Shown here in pieces: positions 8,953 through 24,000 of a stretch of DNA of 24,000 bases. The position numbers and the translations under genes are program-made. Source of the DNA: Minisyncoccota bacterium (GTDB lineage: Bacteria; Patescibacteriota; Minisyncoccia; Phycocordibacterales; JACZSL01); contig JANQMM010000059.1 of assembly GCA_028280145.1 (NCBI GenBank), positions 645 through 24,644 on the forward strand, given 5' to 3'. The notes beneath the pieces were generated by a model. The model saw only the letters and a list, made by a program, of their open reading frames with translations, did no database searches and was not told the origin of the DNA. The stretch's first letter is position 1. Each line of letters starts with the position of its first letter.

Positions 8953-9858
8953 CTATTTCTTCTTTGCGAGATACTGTACAAACAAACTTTTCTCAGCGGT
9001 GCCTTTGCCGAAATCATAATATATATCTTGGATTTCAAAGTGTTCTGACAACACTTCTTTCATATCATCTTGATAAATTGGGTACAGATCAAGTTTTGAC
9101 CAAATCTTTTCCTCTTTGTCGTAATAATGCAAAACGACAGCAGTATCACTGATGTAAGCGGGAAAGACGATGATTCCATCTTGAAAACCGTGATAATAGA
9201 TCGCGTAGTCAAACGTGAAGTTTTTAAATATATCTTGTTTTGGTAAATTCATCAGAGATTTGATGTAATCGTAGTTCCTCGAGTCAATGAAAAGGTAACC
9301 ATCTTTGTCTATCATGTGGGCAAACTTACTTATCACACTCTTTTGTGCCTTCTTTGTGTATTCTCGTGTACCACCACCGATATATGTTAAAGAGTTTCCT
9401 GTGAGAAAAGCAAAGTCAAAATTGTGGGTATATGGTGGGGTTGCTTTCGGCAAATCCAACCAATTTGCTTTGTGAATCTGAATATCTTGCCCTTCCTTTG
9501 AAAATAACTCTTGAGACATTGTGATGAACGAATCATCAACCTCATTTGCTTCAACATGCTCCAGAGGATAGCCCTCTTCTTTGAGAATCTTCTGGATGTG
9601 ACTTAACTCCAAACCACTACCAACGCCCAAGTCCAAGACCTTCTTCAAACCATGTGTTTGAATAATTTGAGCGAAGAATTTAATCTCCTCAAGTTTTGTT
9701 CCACCCTTAAATTTAGGGTAAATACCCGTCTCCCATTCAACAAAGGTAAAATCCCCAAACTCCTCAATTGGATTACTGATATATGGCAGTGTGTTTACAA
9801 AATCCATGTTATTACACCAAGAACTCCAAAACATTTCGGCAATCTCATCAAAAGCCAA
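8953..9858 (-). CDS. Class I SAM-dependent methyltransferase, glycine/sarcosine N-methyltransferase-like
   Basis: It has SAM motif I VLDLGVGSGLE, and LFIDSRNYDYI resembles the RNYD motif of GNMT-type small-molecule methyltransferases. The start is either TTG at 9858 or ATG at 9834. Confidence 0.6.
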   Translation of the reverse strand: MAFDEIAEMFWSSWCNNMDFVNTLPYISNPIEEFGDFTFVEWETGIYPKFKGGTKLEEIKFFAQIIQTHGLKKVLDLGVGSGLELSHIQKILKEEGYPLEHVEANEVDDSFITMSQELFSKEGQDIQIHKANWLDLPKATPPYTHNFDFAFLTGNSLTYIGGGTREYTKKAQKSVISKFAHMIDKDGYLFIDSRNYDYIKSLMNLPKQDIFKNFTFDYAIYYHGFQDGIIVFPAYISDTAVVLHYYDKEEKIWSKLDLYPIYQDDMKEVLSEHFEIQDIYYDFGKGTAEKSLFVQYLAKKK

Positions 9859-9870
9859 AACTTTTTCTTC

Positions 9871-9946
9871 TGGTGGGCGATGAGGGACTTGAACCCCCGG
9901 CCTTTTCGGTGTAAACGAACTGCTCTACCAACTGAGCTAATCGCCC
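9871..9946 (-). tRNA. tRNA-Val (anticodon UAC), CCA encoded
   Basis: The minus strand reads gggcgat-ta-gctcagttggtagagc-a-gttcg-ttTACac-cgaaa-aggcc-ggggg-ttcaagt-ccctc-atcgccc-a-cca. Confidence 0.9.
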
Positions 9947-12629: not shown

Positions 12630-12693
12630 TTAACGAATGAGGGACTTGCGACGAAATGAGTTTAGAACTGGCGCCAAGTCCCTCATCGCCCAC
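12630..12693 (+). repeat. Left 64 bp direct repeat (att-like); its last 19 nt equal the 3' end of tRNA-Val
   Basis: ttaacgaatgagggacttgcgacgaaatgagtttagaactggcgccaagtccctcatcgcccac is identical base for base to 15837-15900. It has an internal 12 bp hairpin (12637-12648 / 12675-12686). Confidence 0.9.
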
Positions 12694-15836: not shown

Positions 15837-15900
15837 TTAACGAATGAGGGACTTGCGACGAAATGAGTTTAGAACTGGCGCCAAGTCCCTCATCGCCCAC
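15837..15900 (+). repeat. Right 64 bp direct repeat (att-like)
   Basis: It is identical to 12630-12693. The flanking bases differ on both sides (t vs c upstream, aaaacc vs cgcacc downstream). Confidence 0.9.
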
Positions 15901-20769: not shown

Positions 20770-21075
20770 ATGGATGACATTGAGAAAGTTATACAACAAG
20801 CAAGGAACATTCAGTTTTCTGAAAAGCATGAGCATCTTTATGCGAACAGACTCTCTGATCTACCTGCATCAAAAGACGCGATGAAACAGTCACTCAAGGG
20901 GCGTATACGACTACTTTGCGGCGCATACATATCACTTGCAAGCTATGTACATGATGAAGATTTTAAATTACTGATTACAGGAAGTCAGAGACAGAAGAGA
21001 AAAGTATACAAGCGAGTACTAAAAGAGGTTGAGCGAAACAGAGAGGAGATAAAAGTGTTTGATCCTTTAGATTAA
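20770..21075 (+). CDS. Hypothetical 101 aa basic protein
   Basis: It is an ORF only, and it overlaps the convergent recombinase 3' end by 9 nt. No domain was recognised. Confidence 0.35.
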   Translation: MDDIEKVIQQARNIQFSEKHEHLYANRLSDLPASKDAMKQSLKGRIRLLCGAYISLASYVHDEDFKLLITGSQRQKRKVYKRVLKEVERNREEIKVFDPLD

Positions 21076-22344
21076 GGAAATCTTTTTATTCTTTAGCACA
21101 ATAGTATTTTTGAAACATGTGAGCAGTTCTCGTTTTTCTTCAATCTCTCCTTCTTTCAGAATGAATTGTGCGTAATTTCGTATATCAATATCTTCGACAC
21201 TGACTTTGTAATCTGTACCACTTACTGCCCGTTGAAACTTTTTGAATCGTTTTACTTCTGCCTTTATTTTATCCTGCATTGGCATGTCTTTAAGATTTAT
21301 TTCAGCAAAATGTTCTTGTAGCTGTTCCACAAGGCTCACCTCATTGAGGTAACCACACTTACAATTTTTATCCCGCGCCTTTGTACAGCCGTAGTACACA
21401 TGCCGATTAAAACCACCGTTTTTAAGTCTTTTGAACTTCTCATCTGCACTAATACCAGATCCACATAGTCCACATTTCATGAGCCGAGTGAATGCAAACT
21501 CCTTACCTTCGTTTCGAATGGAATTACTCTTTACCTGCGCTTGGACTGCATCAAATAACTCCTTTGTAATAATTGGAACATGTTTACCGTCATACCAATT
21601 ACCACTATTTTTAGGATACTCAAATCGTCCGTAGTAAAAGTGATTACTTAATATCACGTAAATATTTCCAAGACTTAGATGCTTCTTTCCTGTTGCTGTT
21701 CTGTAATTCAAATCAAACTTAAGCCAATGATAGAGTTTTCGTCCTGACCACTTTTCGTAAGCAACTTTCTCAAACATTTGTTTAATAACTGGTGCGCGTT
21801 CAGGGTCTACACGAACCTGACACTTTCTATCGGCTCTTTTTTCATTCAAATACCCTGTTGGAGCAACACCGGGTTTCAGTCCCATTTCACATCGTGTACG
21901 TAACCCTCGTTTTACGTTGATACTTTTGTTATCGTTCTCTAACTTTGCCTGACTACAGAGAATCATGAGAAGAAACTTTTCACTTGGTGAGTTTGTAAAC
22001 GTTTGTCCATATGTTCTAATCTCAATTAGGTGTTTTTCATCCATGAGATCAACAATTGATCCGAGGTCACCAGCGTTTCGACTTAAACGATCAGGTGCCC
22101 ACGTAAGAATGCCATTGAACTTATCGTTACGTATATCTTCGAGTAGTTCTTGAAACACGGGTCGTTGGCCTGAATCTTTTGCAGAGTGTGCTTCTCGTCG
22201 TATGTCTACGACATCGAGATTTTCTTTCTCCGCGATCGCAAGCATTTCTTTTACTTGCGACTCAATTGAGAGCTGTTGTTGTTCGTCTGATTCAGTTGAT
22301 TTGCGAGAATACAGACAGTACTTCAATTTGATATCGATATCCAT
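21067..22344 (-). CDS. Large serine recombinase (resolvase domain + recombinase domain + zinc ribbon)
   Basis: It has the N-terminal catalytic motif CLYSRKSTESDEQQQLSIESQ (Ser16), ..WAPDRLSRN.., and the zinc ribbon CGLCGSGIS...YYGCTKARDKNCKCG. Confidence 0.85.
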   Translation of the reverse strand: MDIDIKLKYCLYSRKSTESDEQQQLSIESQVKEMLAIAEKENLDVVDIRREAHSAKDSGQRPVFQELLEDIRNDKFNGILTWAPDRLSRNAGDLGSIVDLMDEKHLIEIRTYGQTFTNSPSEKFLLMILCSQAKLENDNKSINVKRGLRTRCEMGLKPGVAPTGYLNEKRADRKCQVRVDPERAPVIKQMFEKVAYEKWSGRKLYHWLKFDLNYRTATGKKHLSLGNIYVILSNHFYYGRFEYPKNSGNWYDGKHVPIITKELFDAVQAQVKSNSIRNEGKEFAFTRLMKCGLCGSGISADEKFKRLKNGGFNRHVYYGCTKARDKNCKCGYLNEVSLVEQLQEHFAEINLKDMPMQDKIKAEVKRFKKFQRAVSGTDYKVSVEDIDIRNYAQFILKEGEIEEKRELLTCFKNTIVLKNKKISLI

Positions 22345-22421
22345 ATGTAATTAATGCCAGAGCACTTAGAGCTTGCTAAGCCTATGCAGAACAATGGATT
22401 CGTCGCCTACTCGCACAAGTC

Positions 22422-22450
22422 TTAGCAAAGGTAGTGGTTTGCGATACAAT
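22422..22450 (+). promoter_or_regulatory. Sigma70-like promoter TTAGCA-17-TACAAT for the candidate small RNA
   Basis: The -35 is at 22422-22427 and the -10 at 22445-22450, with a spacer of exactly 17 nt. It points the opposite way to both flanking genes. Confidence 0.4.
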
Positions 22451-22456
22451 GGTCAG

Positions 22457-22607
22457 GTGGCTTGAAATGTTGCCACAAAGAATAATTAGATACAGCCTAA
22501 CCCTTATGGTTGCATAAGGTATGGCGAAAAACCCGGTTGAGATTCTGCCTTTGTCATACAAAGGTATATGCCTCTGTCGGGTTATCCGGTCGAGGTCTTT
22601 TTTATTT
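22457..22607 (+). ncRNA. Candidate about 150 nt structured small RNA between the recombinase and the RT, convergent with the RT
   Basis: The predicted start is about 7 nt after the -10. There are three hairpins: gtggc/gccac at 22457-22476, ccttatg/cataagg at 22502-22519 and cctttgt/acaaagg at 22548-22564. A plus-strand intrinsic terminator closes it. No convincing ORF is present. Confidence 0.3.
22571..22607 (+). terminator. Plus-strand rho-independent terminator overlapping the RT stop codon
   Basis: The stem cctctgtcgg-gttat-ccggtcgagg is followed by tcttttttattt. On the minus strand no T-run follows the hairpin. Confidence 0.6.
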
Positions 22608-23651
22608 ATCATTCATCCAAAACCACAACTTATTCTGTAAATCTTCAGATAGCCTATGAGTGTTTGCATGAGACAGTAACCCGAGGTAAGAGTGCAATGT
22701 TTGGTGAACTGTCTCCTCACATATCTCACTTGTTCGATACTCTTCTGCTCGGTTATGCAACTTTCGCGTCAACCGTCGCTTGGTTTTTGTTCTCAGCAGT
22801 GTGTGGTGTGGCCTGATGATATACCCAAGAAAATCAATACCACGATTCAGTTTTCGAACTTCAACTTTATGTGGGTGTAGTTCAAGATGTAGTTTTTCTT
22901 TTAGGAACAATTCTATCTCTTGTAGTAAATCATCAAAGATATCTTTCCTGTCAGTAAGAATGACAAAATCATCAGTGTATCTCACATAATATTTGACTTT
23001 TAACTCATGCTTTATGAATTGATCAAACTCATTCATGTGCACGTTAGCAAATAGCTGAGAGGTGAGATTTCCAATAGGAAGACCTCGTTTATCAAACAGC
23101 TCACCAGAGGCAGTAAAACTACTGATTATCTCCTGAAGCAACCAAGTCACGTCATTGTCCCGAACTTTATTACTAAGTAAATGTAAAAGAACAGAATGGT
23201 CAACGCTATCAAAAAACTTCTTTATGTCACACTTTAACGCAAAACATGGCCTCGTATAGTTTTGACTAACTTTTCTTGTCATGTCTGCAAGAACCGCGAC
23301 ACCCTTATGGTTTCCTTTACCGATTCGACAGGAAAAGGAAGTGGGTATAAACGTCGGTTCAAACAAATCATTTAAAACTCTAAAAACAGCATGATGAACA
23401 ACTCTGTCCCGCACAGTCGCCTTGTGTATATGACGAACTTTTGGATCCCGGATGTAGAAACCGAAATAAGGTCCATGTCGATATTTTTTACTCTTCAAGC
23501 CATGATGTAGCTGAAAAATGTTCTGCTCAAGGTAGAATTCAAACTTTGCTACATCTGGTTTGTTGCGCTTTCCTTTCTTAAATTTTTCCCAAGACAAAAA
23601 GAGATTCTCAGGAGAAATAACTTTATTAAATAAATCTTTATAAACAATCAT
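22602..23651 (-). CDS. Reverse transcriptase of the diversity-generating retroelement (DGR) type
   Basis: GLPIGNLTSQLFANV (IGNLTSQ = nt 23055-23075) is the (I/L/V)GxxxSQ signature of DGR RTs. It also has YTDD at 22968-22979 and the N-terminus ..ENLFLSWEKFKKGKRNK..DPKVRHIHKATVRDRVVHHAV. Confidence 0.85.
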   Translation of the reverse strand: MIVYKDLFNKVISPENLFLSWEKFKKGKRNKPDVAKFEFYLEQNIFQLHHGLKSKKYRHGPYFGFYIRDPKVRHIHKATVRDRVVHHAVFRVLNDLFEPTFIPTSFSCRIGKGNHKGVAVLADMTRKVSQNYTRPCFALKCDIKKFFDSVDHSVLLHLLSNKVRDNDVTWLLQEIISSFTASGELFDKRGLPIGNLTSQLFANVHMNEFDQFIKHELKVKYYVRYTDDFVILTDRKDIFDDLLQEIELFLKEKLHLELHPHKVEVRKLNRGIDFLGYIIRPHHTLLRTKTKRRLTRKLHNRAEEYRTSEICEETVHQTLHSYLGLLSHANTHRLSEDLQNKLWFWMNDK

Positions 23652-24000
23652 GAATGAATTCGATATACCACTATTTAAAAAGTCATATGACTTATATAAA
23701 ATTCTCCACGAGTACTACCATATAATCCCGAAAAAAGATCGCTTTACTACGTTTGAACGGTCTGAGAATGTGCTACTTGAAGTTATCTCTGGTCTTTTCA
23801 AAGCCAGTACACAACCAAAGAAAGAAAAGTTAGAAACGCTTGAACAAATTAGTGTTGATCTTAATCTGTTTCGTGTGTTTATACGATTAATGAAGGATAC
23901 GAAGGCACTTGATAATAAAAAGTACACAGTCCTTCAGAGTGAGGTTGATGAGATTGGACGCATGCTTGGTGGTTGGATACGTTCACTTAAAAACGATTAA
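23650..24000 (+). CDS. avd: Avd-like four-helix-bundle accessory protein (DGR accessory variability determinant family)
   Basis: The 116 aa protein is predicted to be helical and ends ..VDEIGRMLGGWIRSLKN (GGW at 23968-23976), as in Avd / 23S-IVS-type four-helix-bundle proteins. Its stop codon is the last triplet of the window. Confidence 0.7.
   Translation: MNEFDIPLFKKSYDLYKILHEYYHIIPKKDRFTTFERSENVLLEVISGLFKASTQPKKEKLETLEQISVDLNLFRVFIRLMKDTKALDNKKYTVLQSEVDEIGRMLGGWIRSLKND

What the first reader, a model, noticed from the sequence alone, without database searches (positions are those of the whole stretch)
22602..24000. DGR core (RT + Avd) in an unusual head-to-head layout with interlocked start codons; template and target are not in the window
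- **RT class:** the RT has IGNLTSQ (23055-23075) and YTDD (22968-22979). The (I/L/V)GxxxSQ motif is the accepted discriminator of DGR RTs from group II intron (QGxxxSP) and retron RTs.
- **Avd:** the neighbouring 116 aa helical protein ends in EIGRMLGGW, as Avd proteins do.
- **Layout:** canonical DGRs are co-directional (target-avd-TR-RT). Here the two genes diverge and their ATGs share the tetranucleotide CATG (23649-23652). There is no intergenic space, so each promoter must lie inside the other gene. A TATAAA at 23639-23644 sits 5 nt before the avd ATG.
- **Missing parts:** I found no TR/VR-like repeat pair and no lectin-fold or FGE-fold target anywhere in the 24 kb. The remaining parts, if they exist, lie right of 24000.
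Basis: partly seen in the sequence, partly recalled or inferred. Interest (0 to 1): 0.75.

Follow-up and report, generated by a model that had tools for sequence, protein, structure and literature searches.

The report
Ordinary CPR-type DGR, cut by window
This is a genuine diversity-generating retroelement (a reverse transcriptase and helper protein that rewrite part of a target gene), but its back-to-back gene layout is the normal one for ultra-small CPR bacteria, and its template and target lie just past the window's end.

Summary
A 349-aa RT (22602-23651, minus strand) with IGNLTSQ and YTDD abuts a 116-aa Avd (23650-24000, plus strand). Their ATGs share CATG at 23649-23652, and the window holds no TR/VR pair.

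A Logan contig identical to the last 692 nt of the window continues 714 nt further. It carries a 132-nt TR starting 39 nt past the window and a VR 406 nt beyond the TR. Twelve of their 14 mismatches fall at TR adenines (P about 7e-7).

The layout is not unusual for this lineage. Avd is divergent and abutting in 71 of 71 related Patescibacteria loci, and the start-to-start gap is -2 to +5 nt in 23 of 27. This is the published architecture B3, TR-(avd)-RT, which covers 90% of CPR DGRs (Wu et al. 2018).

So this is a new member of a known kind.

One by-product goes beyond the finding. A roughly 260-nt RNA with strong covariation support sits directly 5' of the TR in 46 of 80 loci. It is weakly similar to Rfam RT-16. 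A bidirectional-terminator hairpin follows the TR. Together these suggest a free-standing TR RNA organised differently from the Bordetella phage one.

The parts
22602..23651 (-). DGR reverse transcriptase gene, 349 aa, starting at the ATG at 23651-23649. IGNLTSQ lies at 23055-23075 and the catalytic YTDD at 22968-22979.
   Evidence: Searches give the translation and motif coordinates. Pfam RVT_1, 3e-23; the best solved relative is Bordetella phage bRT 8ub7_A (E 4.6e-46, residues 5-335 aligned to 6-316), against 1e-19 to 1e-22 for group II intron RTs. PHROG 1423, 1.4e-116; a family of mostly 349-aa RTs in Patescibacteria.
23650..24000 (+). avd accessory gene, 116 aa, four-helix bundle, divergent from the RT gene.
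   Evidence: NCBIfam DivGenRetAVD 83.1 bits (cut-off 80). Pfam bAvd 65.5 bits (cut-off 40). PHROG 3206, 'Avd protein of DGR'. AF2 model with pLDDT 92.2 and four helices; Foldseek matches bAvd 4dwl_D (TM 0.84/0.90, rmsd 1.6 A) and the Avd chains of 8ub7.
23649..23652 (.). CATG shared by the two divergent start codons, a 2-nt overlap.
   Evidence: The same overlap occurs in L006 and L061. The start-to-start gap is -2 to +5 nt in 23 of 27 relatives with clean starts.
23639..23644 (+). TATAAA, antisense of RT codons 3-5, lying 5 nt before the avd ATG. Candidate -10 element for avd (inferred).
   Evidence: a TATAAA or TTTATAAA box lies about 5-21 nt (mostly 8-12) upstream of the avd ATG in most of 25 relatives. 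Coding constraint on the RT N-terminus (M-K-I-Y-K) cannot be separated from promoter constraint. The consensus promoter scan shows no enrichment.
23662..23670 (-). TGGTATATC on the RT strand, antisense of avd codons 5-7 (D-I-P). Candidate extended -10-like element for the RT gene (inferred).
   Evidence: 'ttGGTATATC' is conserved about 10-25 nt upstream of the RT ATG in most relatives. Its function is untested.
22520..22601 (-). Nested stem-loop ending in a U-run, just after the RT stop codon. Probable RT terminator.
   Evidence: fold of -29.7 kcal/mol with ...CCGGGUUUUU; the CAACCGGGTTTT block is conserved in L006.
21067..22344 (-). Large serine recombinase or integrase directly downstream of the RT gene. 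A neighbour, possibly the mobility gene of the cassette.
   Evidence: Resolvase, Recombinase and Zn_ribbon_recom domains. PHROG 95, integrase, 2.8e-63; the same RT-recombinase adjacency in L006 (59.5% identity), L060 and L076. Beyond the recombinase no tested flanking gene is shared with L006, but both loci lie near a tRNA-Ser gene.
23999..24000 (-). Window edge. These two bases begin a hairpin, and the rest of the element lies beyond the window. It was read from contig L003, where window-equivalent coordinate = L003 position + 23308. All of the following are on the minus strand.
- Hairpin with a 15-bp stem and GCAA loop, 23999-24032 (L003 691-724). It has the shape of a bidirectional terminator and may bind Avd.
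- Template repeat (TR), 24039-24170 (L003 731-862).
- Conserved structured RNA of about 260 nt directly 5' of the TR, 24171-24431 (L003 863-1123).
- Terminator-like hairpin after the target gene, 24471-24501 (L003 1163-1193).
- Target-gene stop codon, 24572-24574.
- Variable repeat (VR), 24577-24708 (L003 1269-1400). The target gene runs off the contig.
   Evidence: - **Join to the window.** L003 is 100% identical to window 23309-24000.
- **TR/VR.** They align over 132 nt with 14 mismatches, 12 at TR adenines (29 A in 132 nt; P 7e-7).
- **Target.** The VR peptide is ...DDPVADDRFVRAPFFRFHDGEVKFGTAWYDDANQFYGSASAFVPQS*. Its C-terminus is homologous to a family of more than 2800 roughly 288-aa Patescibacteria proteins.
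- **Hairpins.**
- **Structured RNA.**
  - nhmmer finds it in 46 of 80 loci, always abutting the TR.
  - It has 53 pairs, 45 with compensatory changes.
  - 95.9% of cells are paired, against 72.9% when shuffled and about 48% when slid.
  - It gives a weak full-length match to Rfam RT-16, 24.7 bits against a gathering score of 50.

Best explanation
**What it is.** The window holds the RT and avd genes of a complete chromosomal diversity-generating retroelement of the Patescibacteria (CPR) clade. Its layout is the published architecture B3. Read on the RT strand, the order is: target gene ending in the VR, about 400 nt, TR, hairpin, avd on the opposite strand, RT, and here also a serine recombinase.

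**How it most likely works.**
1. A TR RNA is made from the minus strand. It consists of a roughly 260-nt structured leader, the 132-nt TR and a terminator-shaped hairpin.
2. The RT, held by an Avd pentamer, copies the TR into cDNA and misincorporates opposite template adenines.
3. The cDNA replaces the VR, rewriting about a dozen codons at the C-terminus of a roughly 290-aa protein of unknown fold.

**Shown here.** The identity of the RT and Avd. The TR/VR pair and its adenine bias. Conservation of the layout across the family. The covariation-supported RNA 5' of the TR. The hairpin 3' of the TR.

**Inferred.** The extent of the transcripts and the position of the promoters. The roles of the RNA domain and the hairpin. 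Present-day activity. That the divergent, abutting starts are served by -10-like elements embedded in the opposite gene's first codons.
For: **RT.**
- The best solved relative is Bordetella phage bRT (E 4.6e-46, full length), 24 or more orders of magnitude better than group II intron RTs or defence RTs.
- The IGNLTSQ motif aligns with bRT IGSLTSQ.
- PHROG 1423 matches at 1.4e-116.

**Avd.** It passes the NCBIfam equivalog and Pfam bAvd cut-offs, and its predicted fold matches bAvd.

**TR/VR.** L003 is identical to the window over 692 nt. It carries a 132-nt repeat pair in which 12 of 14 mismatches are at TR adenines (P 7e-7).

**Layout.**
- Avd is divergent and abutting in 71 of 71 relatives.
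- About 60 of 80 relatives have an adenine-biased TR/VR pair, and in most of them the order is the same.
- Wu et al. 2018 define B3 as TR-(avd)-RT and report it as 90% of the CPR set.
- Roux et al. 2021 describe a Patescibacteria-restricted DGR clade.

**RNA.** (structured domain; hairpin).

**Genomic context.** The surrounding genes are chromosomal CPR-type housekeeping genes.
Against: - The TR, VR and RNA domain were read from a separate short Logan contig, not from the window's own contig. The join rests on 692 nt of perfect identity.
- Only the last 46 codons of the target gene are seen. Its fold and function are unknown: relatives have no Pfam domain, and an AF2 model of a relative has no Foldseek match.
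- Two of the 14 mismatches are not at adenines.
- Only one VR variant was seen, so ongoing activity is not shown.
- The consensus sigma-70 scan found no more promoter-like sites than shuffled sequence gives.
- Conservation of the TATAAA and TGGTATATC motifs cannot be separated from coding constraint.
Confidence: 0.9

Rival explanations
1. An orphan or decayed RT-Avd pair with no template or target, as the window alone would suggest.
For: No TR/VR pair anywhere in the 24 kb. The window ends at the avd stop codon.
Against: L003 is identical over 692 nt and continues into a TR/VR pair with 12 of 14 mismatches at adenines. About 60 of 80 relatives have an adenine-biased TR/VR pair, in most of them in the same order. 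Both genes are intact, and the RT catalytic YTDD motif is present.
Confidence: 0.03
2. The RT belongs to another RT class (group II intron, retron, or defence-associated DRT/UG/Abi), and the Avd-like gene is a stray four-helix-bundle (23S rRNA IVS-type) protein.
For: NCBIfam gives sub-threshold hits to group_II_RT_mat (153.6 bits, cut-off 300), Drt3a, Drt2 and retron St85. Public annotations of homologues read 'group II intron RT' or 'retron-type RT'.
Against: - None of those models reaches its cut-off.
- bRT is by far the best solved relative.
- The protein has no maturase or endonuclease domain.
- Avd passes the DGR-specific equivalog but fails the generic four-helix-bundle and 23S_rRNA_IVP cut-offs.
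- An adenine-biased TR/VR pair is present.
Confidence: 0.02
3. The start-codon interlock is an annotation artefact. The RT really starts at the TTG 54 nt downstream, as in the 331-aa Logan gene call, which leaves a 52-nt intergenic region for ordinary promoters.
For: Gene callers on three Logan contigs chose the 331-aa form. About ten of the listed homologues are 330-332 aa.
Against: - Residues 5-18 align with the N-terminus of bRT.
- Most homologues are 348-350 aa.
- In 25 or more relatives tblastn aligns from residue 1 onto an ATG 0-5 nt from the avd ATG.
- The conserved 'ISPENL' segment lies upstream of the TTG.
Confidence: 0.06
4. The head-to-head overlap marks a new DGR design with a special bidirectional regulatory module.
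For: The starts are extremely tight, -2 to +5 nt. Conserved AT-rich motifs sit on both strands inside the first codons. No paper in hand discusses how these two genes are transcribed.
Against: The arrangement is already catalogued as architecture B3 and dominates CPR DGRs. It is therefore not a feature of this locus. The motifs may simply reflect conserved N-terminal residues in an AT-rich genome. There is no promoter enrichment.
Confidence: 0.15

Closest known systems
CPR/Patescibacteria DGRs of architecture B3, TR-(avd)-RT (Wu et al. 2018, PMC5758913; Paul et al. 2017; DGR clade 2 of Roux et al. 2021, PMC8144416)
   Same: The gene order and orientations are the same. The host lineage is the same: the nearest RTs, at 58-74% identity, are in Paceibacterota, Taylorbacteria, Nomurabacteria and Staskawiczbacteria MAGs. 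The RT and Avd are the same size. The VR lies at the extreme C-terminus of a small target protein with no recognisable domain.
   Different: Nothing essential differs. The RT is at most 74% identical to any RT in the collections searched. A large serine recombinase follows the RT, which is seen in only a few relatives (L006, L060, L076).
Bordetella phage BPP-1 DGR (mtd-avd-TR-brt; bRT-Avd RNP, PDB 8ub7; Handa et al. 2018 PMC6182149 and 2024 bioRxiv 10.1101/2023.10.23.563531)
   Same: The RT is homologous over its full length (E 4.6e-46), including the IG(N/S)LTSQ motif. Avd has the same fold (TM about 0.85). The TR-to-VR differences are adenine-specific. A stem-loop sits directly 3' of the TR.
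   Different: [quoted passage not shown]
- A conserved, roughly 260-nt structured RNA lies 5' of the TR instead.
- The post-TR hairpin has the shape of a terminator.
- The element is chromosomal in a CPR bacterium rather than carried by a phage.
- The target is not a recognisable C-type-lectin tail fibre.
Rfam RF03019, RT-16 RNA motif (Weinberg et al. 2017, PMC5737381: RT-1 to RT-19 motifs found near RT genes; RT-10 lies in the BPP-1 spacer)
   Same: The match covers the full model (positions 1-158) and ends exactly at the TR start. Shared features are CUaCacG, AUAAAAUaCAg, GGUGa and a long-range helix enclosing two hairpins.
   Different: The score is 24.7 bits against a gathering score of 50. 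No match reaching about 26 bits appeared in 12 related loci. The element here has an extra 5' hairpin that is not in the RT-16 model.

Membership tests
Diversity-generating retroelement (DGR) | The RT belongs to the DGR clade and has the (I/L/V)GxxxSQ motif. | tested here: met
   IGNLTSQ lies at residues 193-199. The best solved relative is bRT, E 4.6e-46 over the full length, against 1e-19 to 1e-22 for group II intron RTs. No formal phylogeny was built.
Diversity-generating retroelement (DGR) | A TR/VR repeat pair near the RT whose mismatches fall almost only at adenines of one copy. | tested here: met
   The pair is not in the window. It is in the identical extension L003: 132 nt, 12 of 14 mismatches at TR adenines, P 7e-7.
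Diversity-generating retroelement (DGR) | The VR lies inside a protein-coding target gene, usually at its 3' end. | tested here: met
   The VR frame is open for all 46 visible codons and ends 2 codons after the repeat. The C-terminus is homologous to a family of more than 2800 members. The rest of the gene is not seen.
Diversity-generating retroelement (DGR) | An accessory protein Avd, as in class B architectures. | tested here: met
   NCBIfam DivGenRetAVD 83.1 bits (cut-off 80) and Pfam bAvd 65.5 bits (cut-off 40). The predicted fold matches 4dwl and 8ub7 Avd.
Diversity-generating retroelement (DGR) | Ongoing mutagenic retrohoming, seen as VR heterogeneity in a population. | not testable with these tools
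   Only one VR sequence was recovered. Three independent assemblies break inside the TR or VR, which is only suggestive.
DGR architecture B3, TR-(avd)-RT (Wu et al. 2018) | The TR lies upstream of the RT on the same strand, with avd between them on the opposite strand. | tested here: met
   Window plus L003. The arrangement is identical in 71 of 71 relatives for avd, and in most of about 60 relatives for the TR. The definition is quoted.
C-type-lectin or Ig-fold DGR target | The VR is displayed on a CLec or Ig fold. | tested here: inconclusive
Group II intron RT/maturase | Reaches the TIGR04416 cut-off; has a maturase (X) domain and flanking intron RNA. | tested here: not met
   153.6 bits against a cut-off of 300. 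The protein is 349 aa and has no X domain. Rfam finds no intron RNA in the window.
Defence RTs (DRT/UG/Abi) and retrons | Reaches the family-specific NCBIfam cut-offs. | tested here: not met
   Drt3a 85.8 bits (cut-off 200), Drt2 70.5 (390), retron St85 68.6 (235), AbiA 24.6 (250).
Rfam RT-16 RNA (RF03019) | Reaches the gathering score of 50 bits. | tested here: not met
   24.7 bits, E 0.15 on 501 nt. The shared motifs, shared topology and position at the TR start suggest a relationship, not membership.

The most novel reading that the evidence does not exclude
In CPR DGRs of this layout the TR RNA would be a free-standing non-coding transcript that ends at its own terminator. Its protein-binding, stop-duplex and possibly priming elements would have moved from the 3' spacer, where they lie in Bordetella phage, to a roughly 260-nt structured domain 5' of the TR. 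That domain is RT-16-like. Its 12-bp long-range helix ends 2-3 nt before the TR and resembles the 'cPRT stop' duplex. This would be a permuted DGR RNA, and it would give the orphan Rfam motif RT-16 a function. The two protein genes would be driven by -10-like elements written into each other's first codons.
Probability: 0.3. Interest if true: 0.6.

Novelty: new member of a known kind. Interest (0 to 1): 0.3.

Why it matters
For the finding itself, little changes. It adds one more Patescibacteria DGR, and it shows that a layout which looks odd against the Bordetella phage textbook element is the lineage's norm. It also shows that window edges and assembly breaks at TR/VR repeats can hide half of an element.

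The side result may matter more. A large RNA domain with strong covariation support is attached to the TR in dozens of CPR DGRs. It offers a concrete handle on how these elements prime and stop cDNA synthesis without a 3' spacer. It also offers a better signature than RT homology alone for finding their templates.

Tried and rejected
- **Adenine-tolerant scan of the window.** I scanned all four strand combinations for a TR/VR pair and found only edge effects of an unrelated 64-nt repeat. A scan with the real TR for extra targets gave background only.
- **Exact look-up of the RT protein.** It is not on record, because the gene was called 18 codons short. Look-ups of Avd and the recombinase returned only short Logan contigs that break in the TR or VR.
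- **Search for the window's own contig.**
  - It is not among the GTDB representative genomes; the best hit is 74% identical.
  - It is not in the JGI metagenomes by exact match to the TR-VR spacer.
- **Search for the element's own target protein.**
  - It is not among the 120 best relatives of the L017 target.
  - A search with the 46-aa VR peptide gave two unrelated fragments.
  - The target's body therefore remains unseen.
- **Rfam at gathering thresholds.** Nothing was found in the DGR region of the window or of six loci.
- **Consensus fold of leader, TR and hairpin together.** It gave no pairs between the TR and its flanks, so no priming duplex could be proposed. By eye, the conserved ACGG loops do not consistently pair with the TR 3' ends.
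- **Papers.** Paul et al. 2017 and a 2026 preprint on ncRNA mining were not available to read.
Full report
**1. What is in the window**

- The minus-strand ORF 22602-23651 encodes a 349-aa reverse transcriptase. IGNLTSQ lies at 23055-23075 and YTDD at 22968-22979.
- The plus-strand ORF 23650-24000 encodes a 116-aa helical protein ending EIGRMLGGWIRSLKND.
- The two ATGs share CATG at 23649-23652. TATAAA at 23639-23644 ends 5 nt before the avd ATG.
- The window stops exactly at the avd stop codon.

**2. Identity of the two proteins**

The RT:
- It matches Pfam RVT_1 (3e-23).
- Among solved structures it is by far closest to the Bordetella phage DGR enzyme bRT (8ub7_A, E 4.6e-46). The alignment runs from residue 5 to 335 and pairs IGNLTSQ with bRT IGSLTSQ.
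- Group II intron RTs score 1e-19 to 1e-22, and defence RTs about 1e-6.
- The NCBIfam models for group II, Drt2-5, retron St85 and AbiA are all far below their cut-offs.
- PHROG 1423 (reverse transcriptase) matches at 1.4e-116.

Avd:
- It passes the curated cut-offs of NCBIfam DivGenRetAVD (83.1 vs 80 bits) and Pfam bAvd (65.5 vs 40 bits).
- It fails the generic four-helix-bundle and 23S_rRNA_IVP models.
- A single-sequence AF2 model (pLDDT 92.2, four helices) superposes on bAvd 4dwl and on the Avd chains of 8ub7, with TM about 0.8-0.9.

The RT start:
- Logan gene calls start the RT at a TTG 18 codons downstream. That is wrong.
- The first 18 residues align with the N-terminus of bRT.
- Most homologues are 348-350 aa.
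- More than 25 relatives have an ATG at the aligned position.

**3. The missing template and target**

Nothing in the window:
- My adenine-tolerant scan of all strand combinations found no TR/VR pair in the 24 kb.

The extension:
- The exact Avd protein is encoded on three short Logan contigs.
- One of them, L003, is 100% identical to window 23309-24000 and continues for 714 nt.
- All the features below lie on the minus strand, the RT strand. Coordinates are window-equivalent (L003 position + 23308).

| Feature | Window-equivalent position | Note |
|---|---|---|
| Hairpin, 15 bp, GCAA loop | 23999-24032 | |
| TR, 132 nt | 24039-24170 | |
| Spacer, 406 nt | 24171-24576 | between TR and VR |
| VR | 24577-24708 | |
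| Target-gene stop codon | 24572-24574 | contig ends inside the target gene |

The adenine bias:
- TR and VR differ at 14 positions. Twelve are adenines in the TR, which has 29 A in 132 nt (binomial P 7e-7).
- The TR is rich in AAY codons. The changes give N to R, H, D, F and A, K to E and Q, D to G, and Y to F.
- The part of the TR covered by two other samples is identical, although one of them differs at 14 sites elsewhere.
The refutation criterion it set, no adenine-biased pair within 10 kb, is not met.

**4. Is the layout unusual?**

No, not for this lineage.

- A scan of one genome per species found at least 562 loci encoding relatives. The 80 best are nearly all labelled as Patescibacteria/CPR-type MAGs. 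A few TPA bins carry other automatic labels, such as Gammaproteobacteria, Flavobacteriales or archaeon. The best hit is 74% identical.
- In all 71 loci where Avd is detectable it is divergent from the RT gene and abuts it. Most of the nine without a hit have the RT at a contig end.
- Among 27 loci with clean starts, the start-to-start gap is -2 to +5 nt in 23. L006 and L061 have the same CATG overlap.
- About 60 of the 80 loci have an adenine-biased TR/VR pair. Most show the same order: VR, 350-470 nt, TR, hairpin, avd on the opposite strand, RT.
- Wu et al. 2018 named this arrangement architecture B3, TR-(avd)-RT. [quoted passage not shown]
- Roux et al. 2021 describe a Patescibacteria-restricted DGR clade whose targets lack recognisable domains.

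**5. Target**

- The visible C-terminus is ...DDPVADDRFVRAPFFRFHDGEVKFGTAWYDDANQFYGSASAFVPQS*.
- It matches the variable C-termini of a family of more than 2800 Patescibacteria proteins of about 288 aa.
- These have no Pfam domain.
- An AF2 model of one member (pLDDT 76.6) has no significant Foldseek match in the PDB or BFVD.
- Whether the VR sits on a C-type-lectin variant remains open.

**6. How it probably works, and what differs from the Bordetella phage element**

In Bordetella phage, the RNA needed for cDNA synthesis is 20 nt of avd, the TR and a 140-nt spacer 3' of the TR. The spacer carries four elements:
- an Avd-binding stem-loop;
- the priming adenosine;
- one strand of a 'stop' duplex, which pairs with the 20 nt upstream of the TR;
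- an RT-binding stem-loop.

Here the 3' side of the TR has room for only one hairpin before antisense avd begins.
- That hairpin has an A-run before it and a U-run after it. This is the shape of a bidirectional terminator for the convergent avd mRNA and TR RNA.
- Hairpins of this kind are conserved in position among relatives but not in sequence or loop.

The 'spacer' between VR and TR is not empty.
- Its last roughly 260 nt are conserved at the nucleotide level: 84% with L006 and 75% with L015. No ORF is conserved.
- A sequence profile finds the element in 46 of 80 loci. It always abuts the TR start on the TR strand, even where the VR lies elsewhere or is inverted.
- RNAalifold on 28 sequences predicts 53 pairs, 45 of them with compensatory changes.
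- With controls, 95.9% of cells are paired, against 72.9% when shuffled and about 48% when partners are slid. The covariation score is 0.72, against 0.27 and 0.09-0.18.

The structure, from 5' to 3':
- two hairpins with A(C/A)GG-containing loops;
- an invariant CU(U/G)CUUG segment;
- a 12-bp long-range helix whose 3' strand ends 2-3 nt before the TR, enclosing two further hairpins;
- the invariant segments AAUAAAAUACAGG and GGUGA.

Relation to known RNA families:
- Rfam has no family that reaches threshold here.
- The only suggestive match is a full-length hit at 24.7 bits to RT-16 (gathering score 50). It ends exactly at the TR start and shares these motifs and the same topology.
- RT-16 is one of the RT-1 to RT-19 motifs that Weinberg et al. 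2017 found near RT genes. They placed RT-10 in the Bordetella spacer.

My reading, which is inference:
- The TR RNA is a separate transcript consisting of a structured leader, the TR and a terminator.
- The leader supplies functions that the 3' spacer supplies in Bordetella phage.
- The long-range helix next to the TR plays the part of the stop duplex.
- I could not identify a priming duplex.

**7. Transcription of the two protein genes**

- With -2 to +5 nt between the starts, any promoter and any ribosome-binding sequence must lie inside the opposite gene, or the mRNAs must have almost no leader.
- TATAAA (antisense of RT codons 3-5, I/V-Y-K) recurs about 5-21 nt, mostly 8-12 nt, upstream of the avd ATG.
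- TGGTATATC (antisense of avd codons 5-7, D-I-P) recurs about 10-25 nt upstream of the RT ATG.
- This fits embedded -10 elements, but it cannot be separated from coding constraint in AT-rich genomes. The consensus promoter scan shows no excess over shuffled sequence.

**8. Context**

- The window is chromosomal CPR-type DNA. It carries ribosomal protein L19, RuvX, PilM/N/O, GTP cyclohydrolase II, TrmB regulators and five tRNA genes.
- A large serine recombinase (21067-22344) follows the RT gene.
- The closest relative, L006, has the same RT-recombinase pair and also lies near a tRNA-Ser gene. No other tested flanking gene is shared.
- This hints that the DGR and the recombinase travel together.

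**9. Verdict**

- The locus is a real and apparently complete DGR, and a new member of a well-described kind: the CPR clade, architecture B3.
- The 'unusual layout' is the lineage's standard.
- Interest in the finding as stated is low to moderate.
- The TR-attached structured RNA and its possible link to RT-16 are the part worth following up.

Noticed in passing
L003 863-1123, minus strand (window-equivalent 24171-24431); L006 529-788; L009 9224-9475; and 43 other loci: A conserved RNA of about 260 nt with strong covariation support lies directly 5' of the TR. It has 53 pairs, 45 with compensatory changes, and 95.9% of cells are paired. It gives a weak full-length match to Rfam RT-16. No Rfam family reaches threshold.
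   Followed up: yes
L003 691-724 (window-equivalent 23999-24032) and the equivalent position in most relatives: A hairpin sits between the TR 3' end and the avd stop codon, with an A-run before it and a U-run after it. This is the shape of a bidirectional terminator. Its position is conserved, but its sequence and loop are not. In Bordetella phage the stem-loop at this position binds Avd.
   Followed up: partly
window 23639-23644 (+) and 23662-23670 (-); the same positions in about 25 relatives: Conserved TATAAA and TGGTATATC motifs are written antisense into the first codons of the RT and avd genes respectively. Each lies a short distance upstream of the other gene's ATG. They may be embedded -10 elements, but this cannot be separated from coding constraint.
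   Followed up: partly
window 21067-22344 (-); L006 2627-3898; L060 11436-12431; L076 2653-3594: A large serine recombinase lies directly downstream of the RT gene in this locus and in a few relatives. The window and L006 share only this gene beyond the DGR, and both lie near a tRNA-Ser gene (anticodon tga here, gct in L006). The DGR and recombinase may form a mobile cassette.
   Followed up: partly
window 22345-22601: The 257-nt gap between the RT stop and the recombinase start keeps conserved blocks with L006: CAACCGGGTTTT, AAGGGTTAGGC, CGAGTAGGCGACGAATC and TCTGCATAG. Its first part folds into a nested terminator-like structure. The role of the rest is unknown.
   Followed up: partly
window 12630-12693 and 15837-15900; inverted partial copy at 9850-9891: A perfect 64-nt direct repeat flanks a 3.2-kb segment that carries GTP cyclohydrolase II and a TrmB regulator. 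Each copy contains the last 19 nt of tRNA-Val (CAAGTCCCTCATCGCCCAC) in the orientation opposite to the real tRNA-Val gene at 9871-9946. This looks like att-site or rearrangement scars.
   Followed up: no
L001, L002 and L004 gene calls; protein P0001: Automatic gene calls shorten this RT to 331 aa by choosing a TTG start that avoids the overlap with avd. An exact look-up of the true 349-aa protein therefore fails.
   Followed up: yes
L011 1238-1374, 1603-1739 and 1782-2114; L035 4462-4582 and 5456-5576; L048 929-1264: Some relatives have extras. L011 has a second adenine-biased TR/VR pair with a second, weak Avd-like hit. L035 has one TR matching two VRs. L048 has a second Avd-like ORF.
   Followed up: no
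L028, L034, L037, L039, L054, L061: In these relatives the VR lies downstream of the RT gene on the opposite strand, while the TR keeps its usual place. In five of the six (L054 only partially; not L037) the structured leader does too. This shows that leader plus TR is the fixed unit and the target position is free.
   Followed up: partly
L017 12259-12371 (-): A LOOT RNA (RF03000, 68.8 bits) lies about 1.2 kb downstream of the RT gene in a Parcubacteria MAG.
   Followed up: no
L010 5378-6640 (+) and 6696-7958 (-): Two copies of the same serine recombinase family (58% and 56% identical to the window's) lie tail to tail, 4 kb from the DGR.
   Followed up: no
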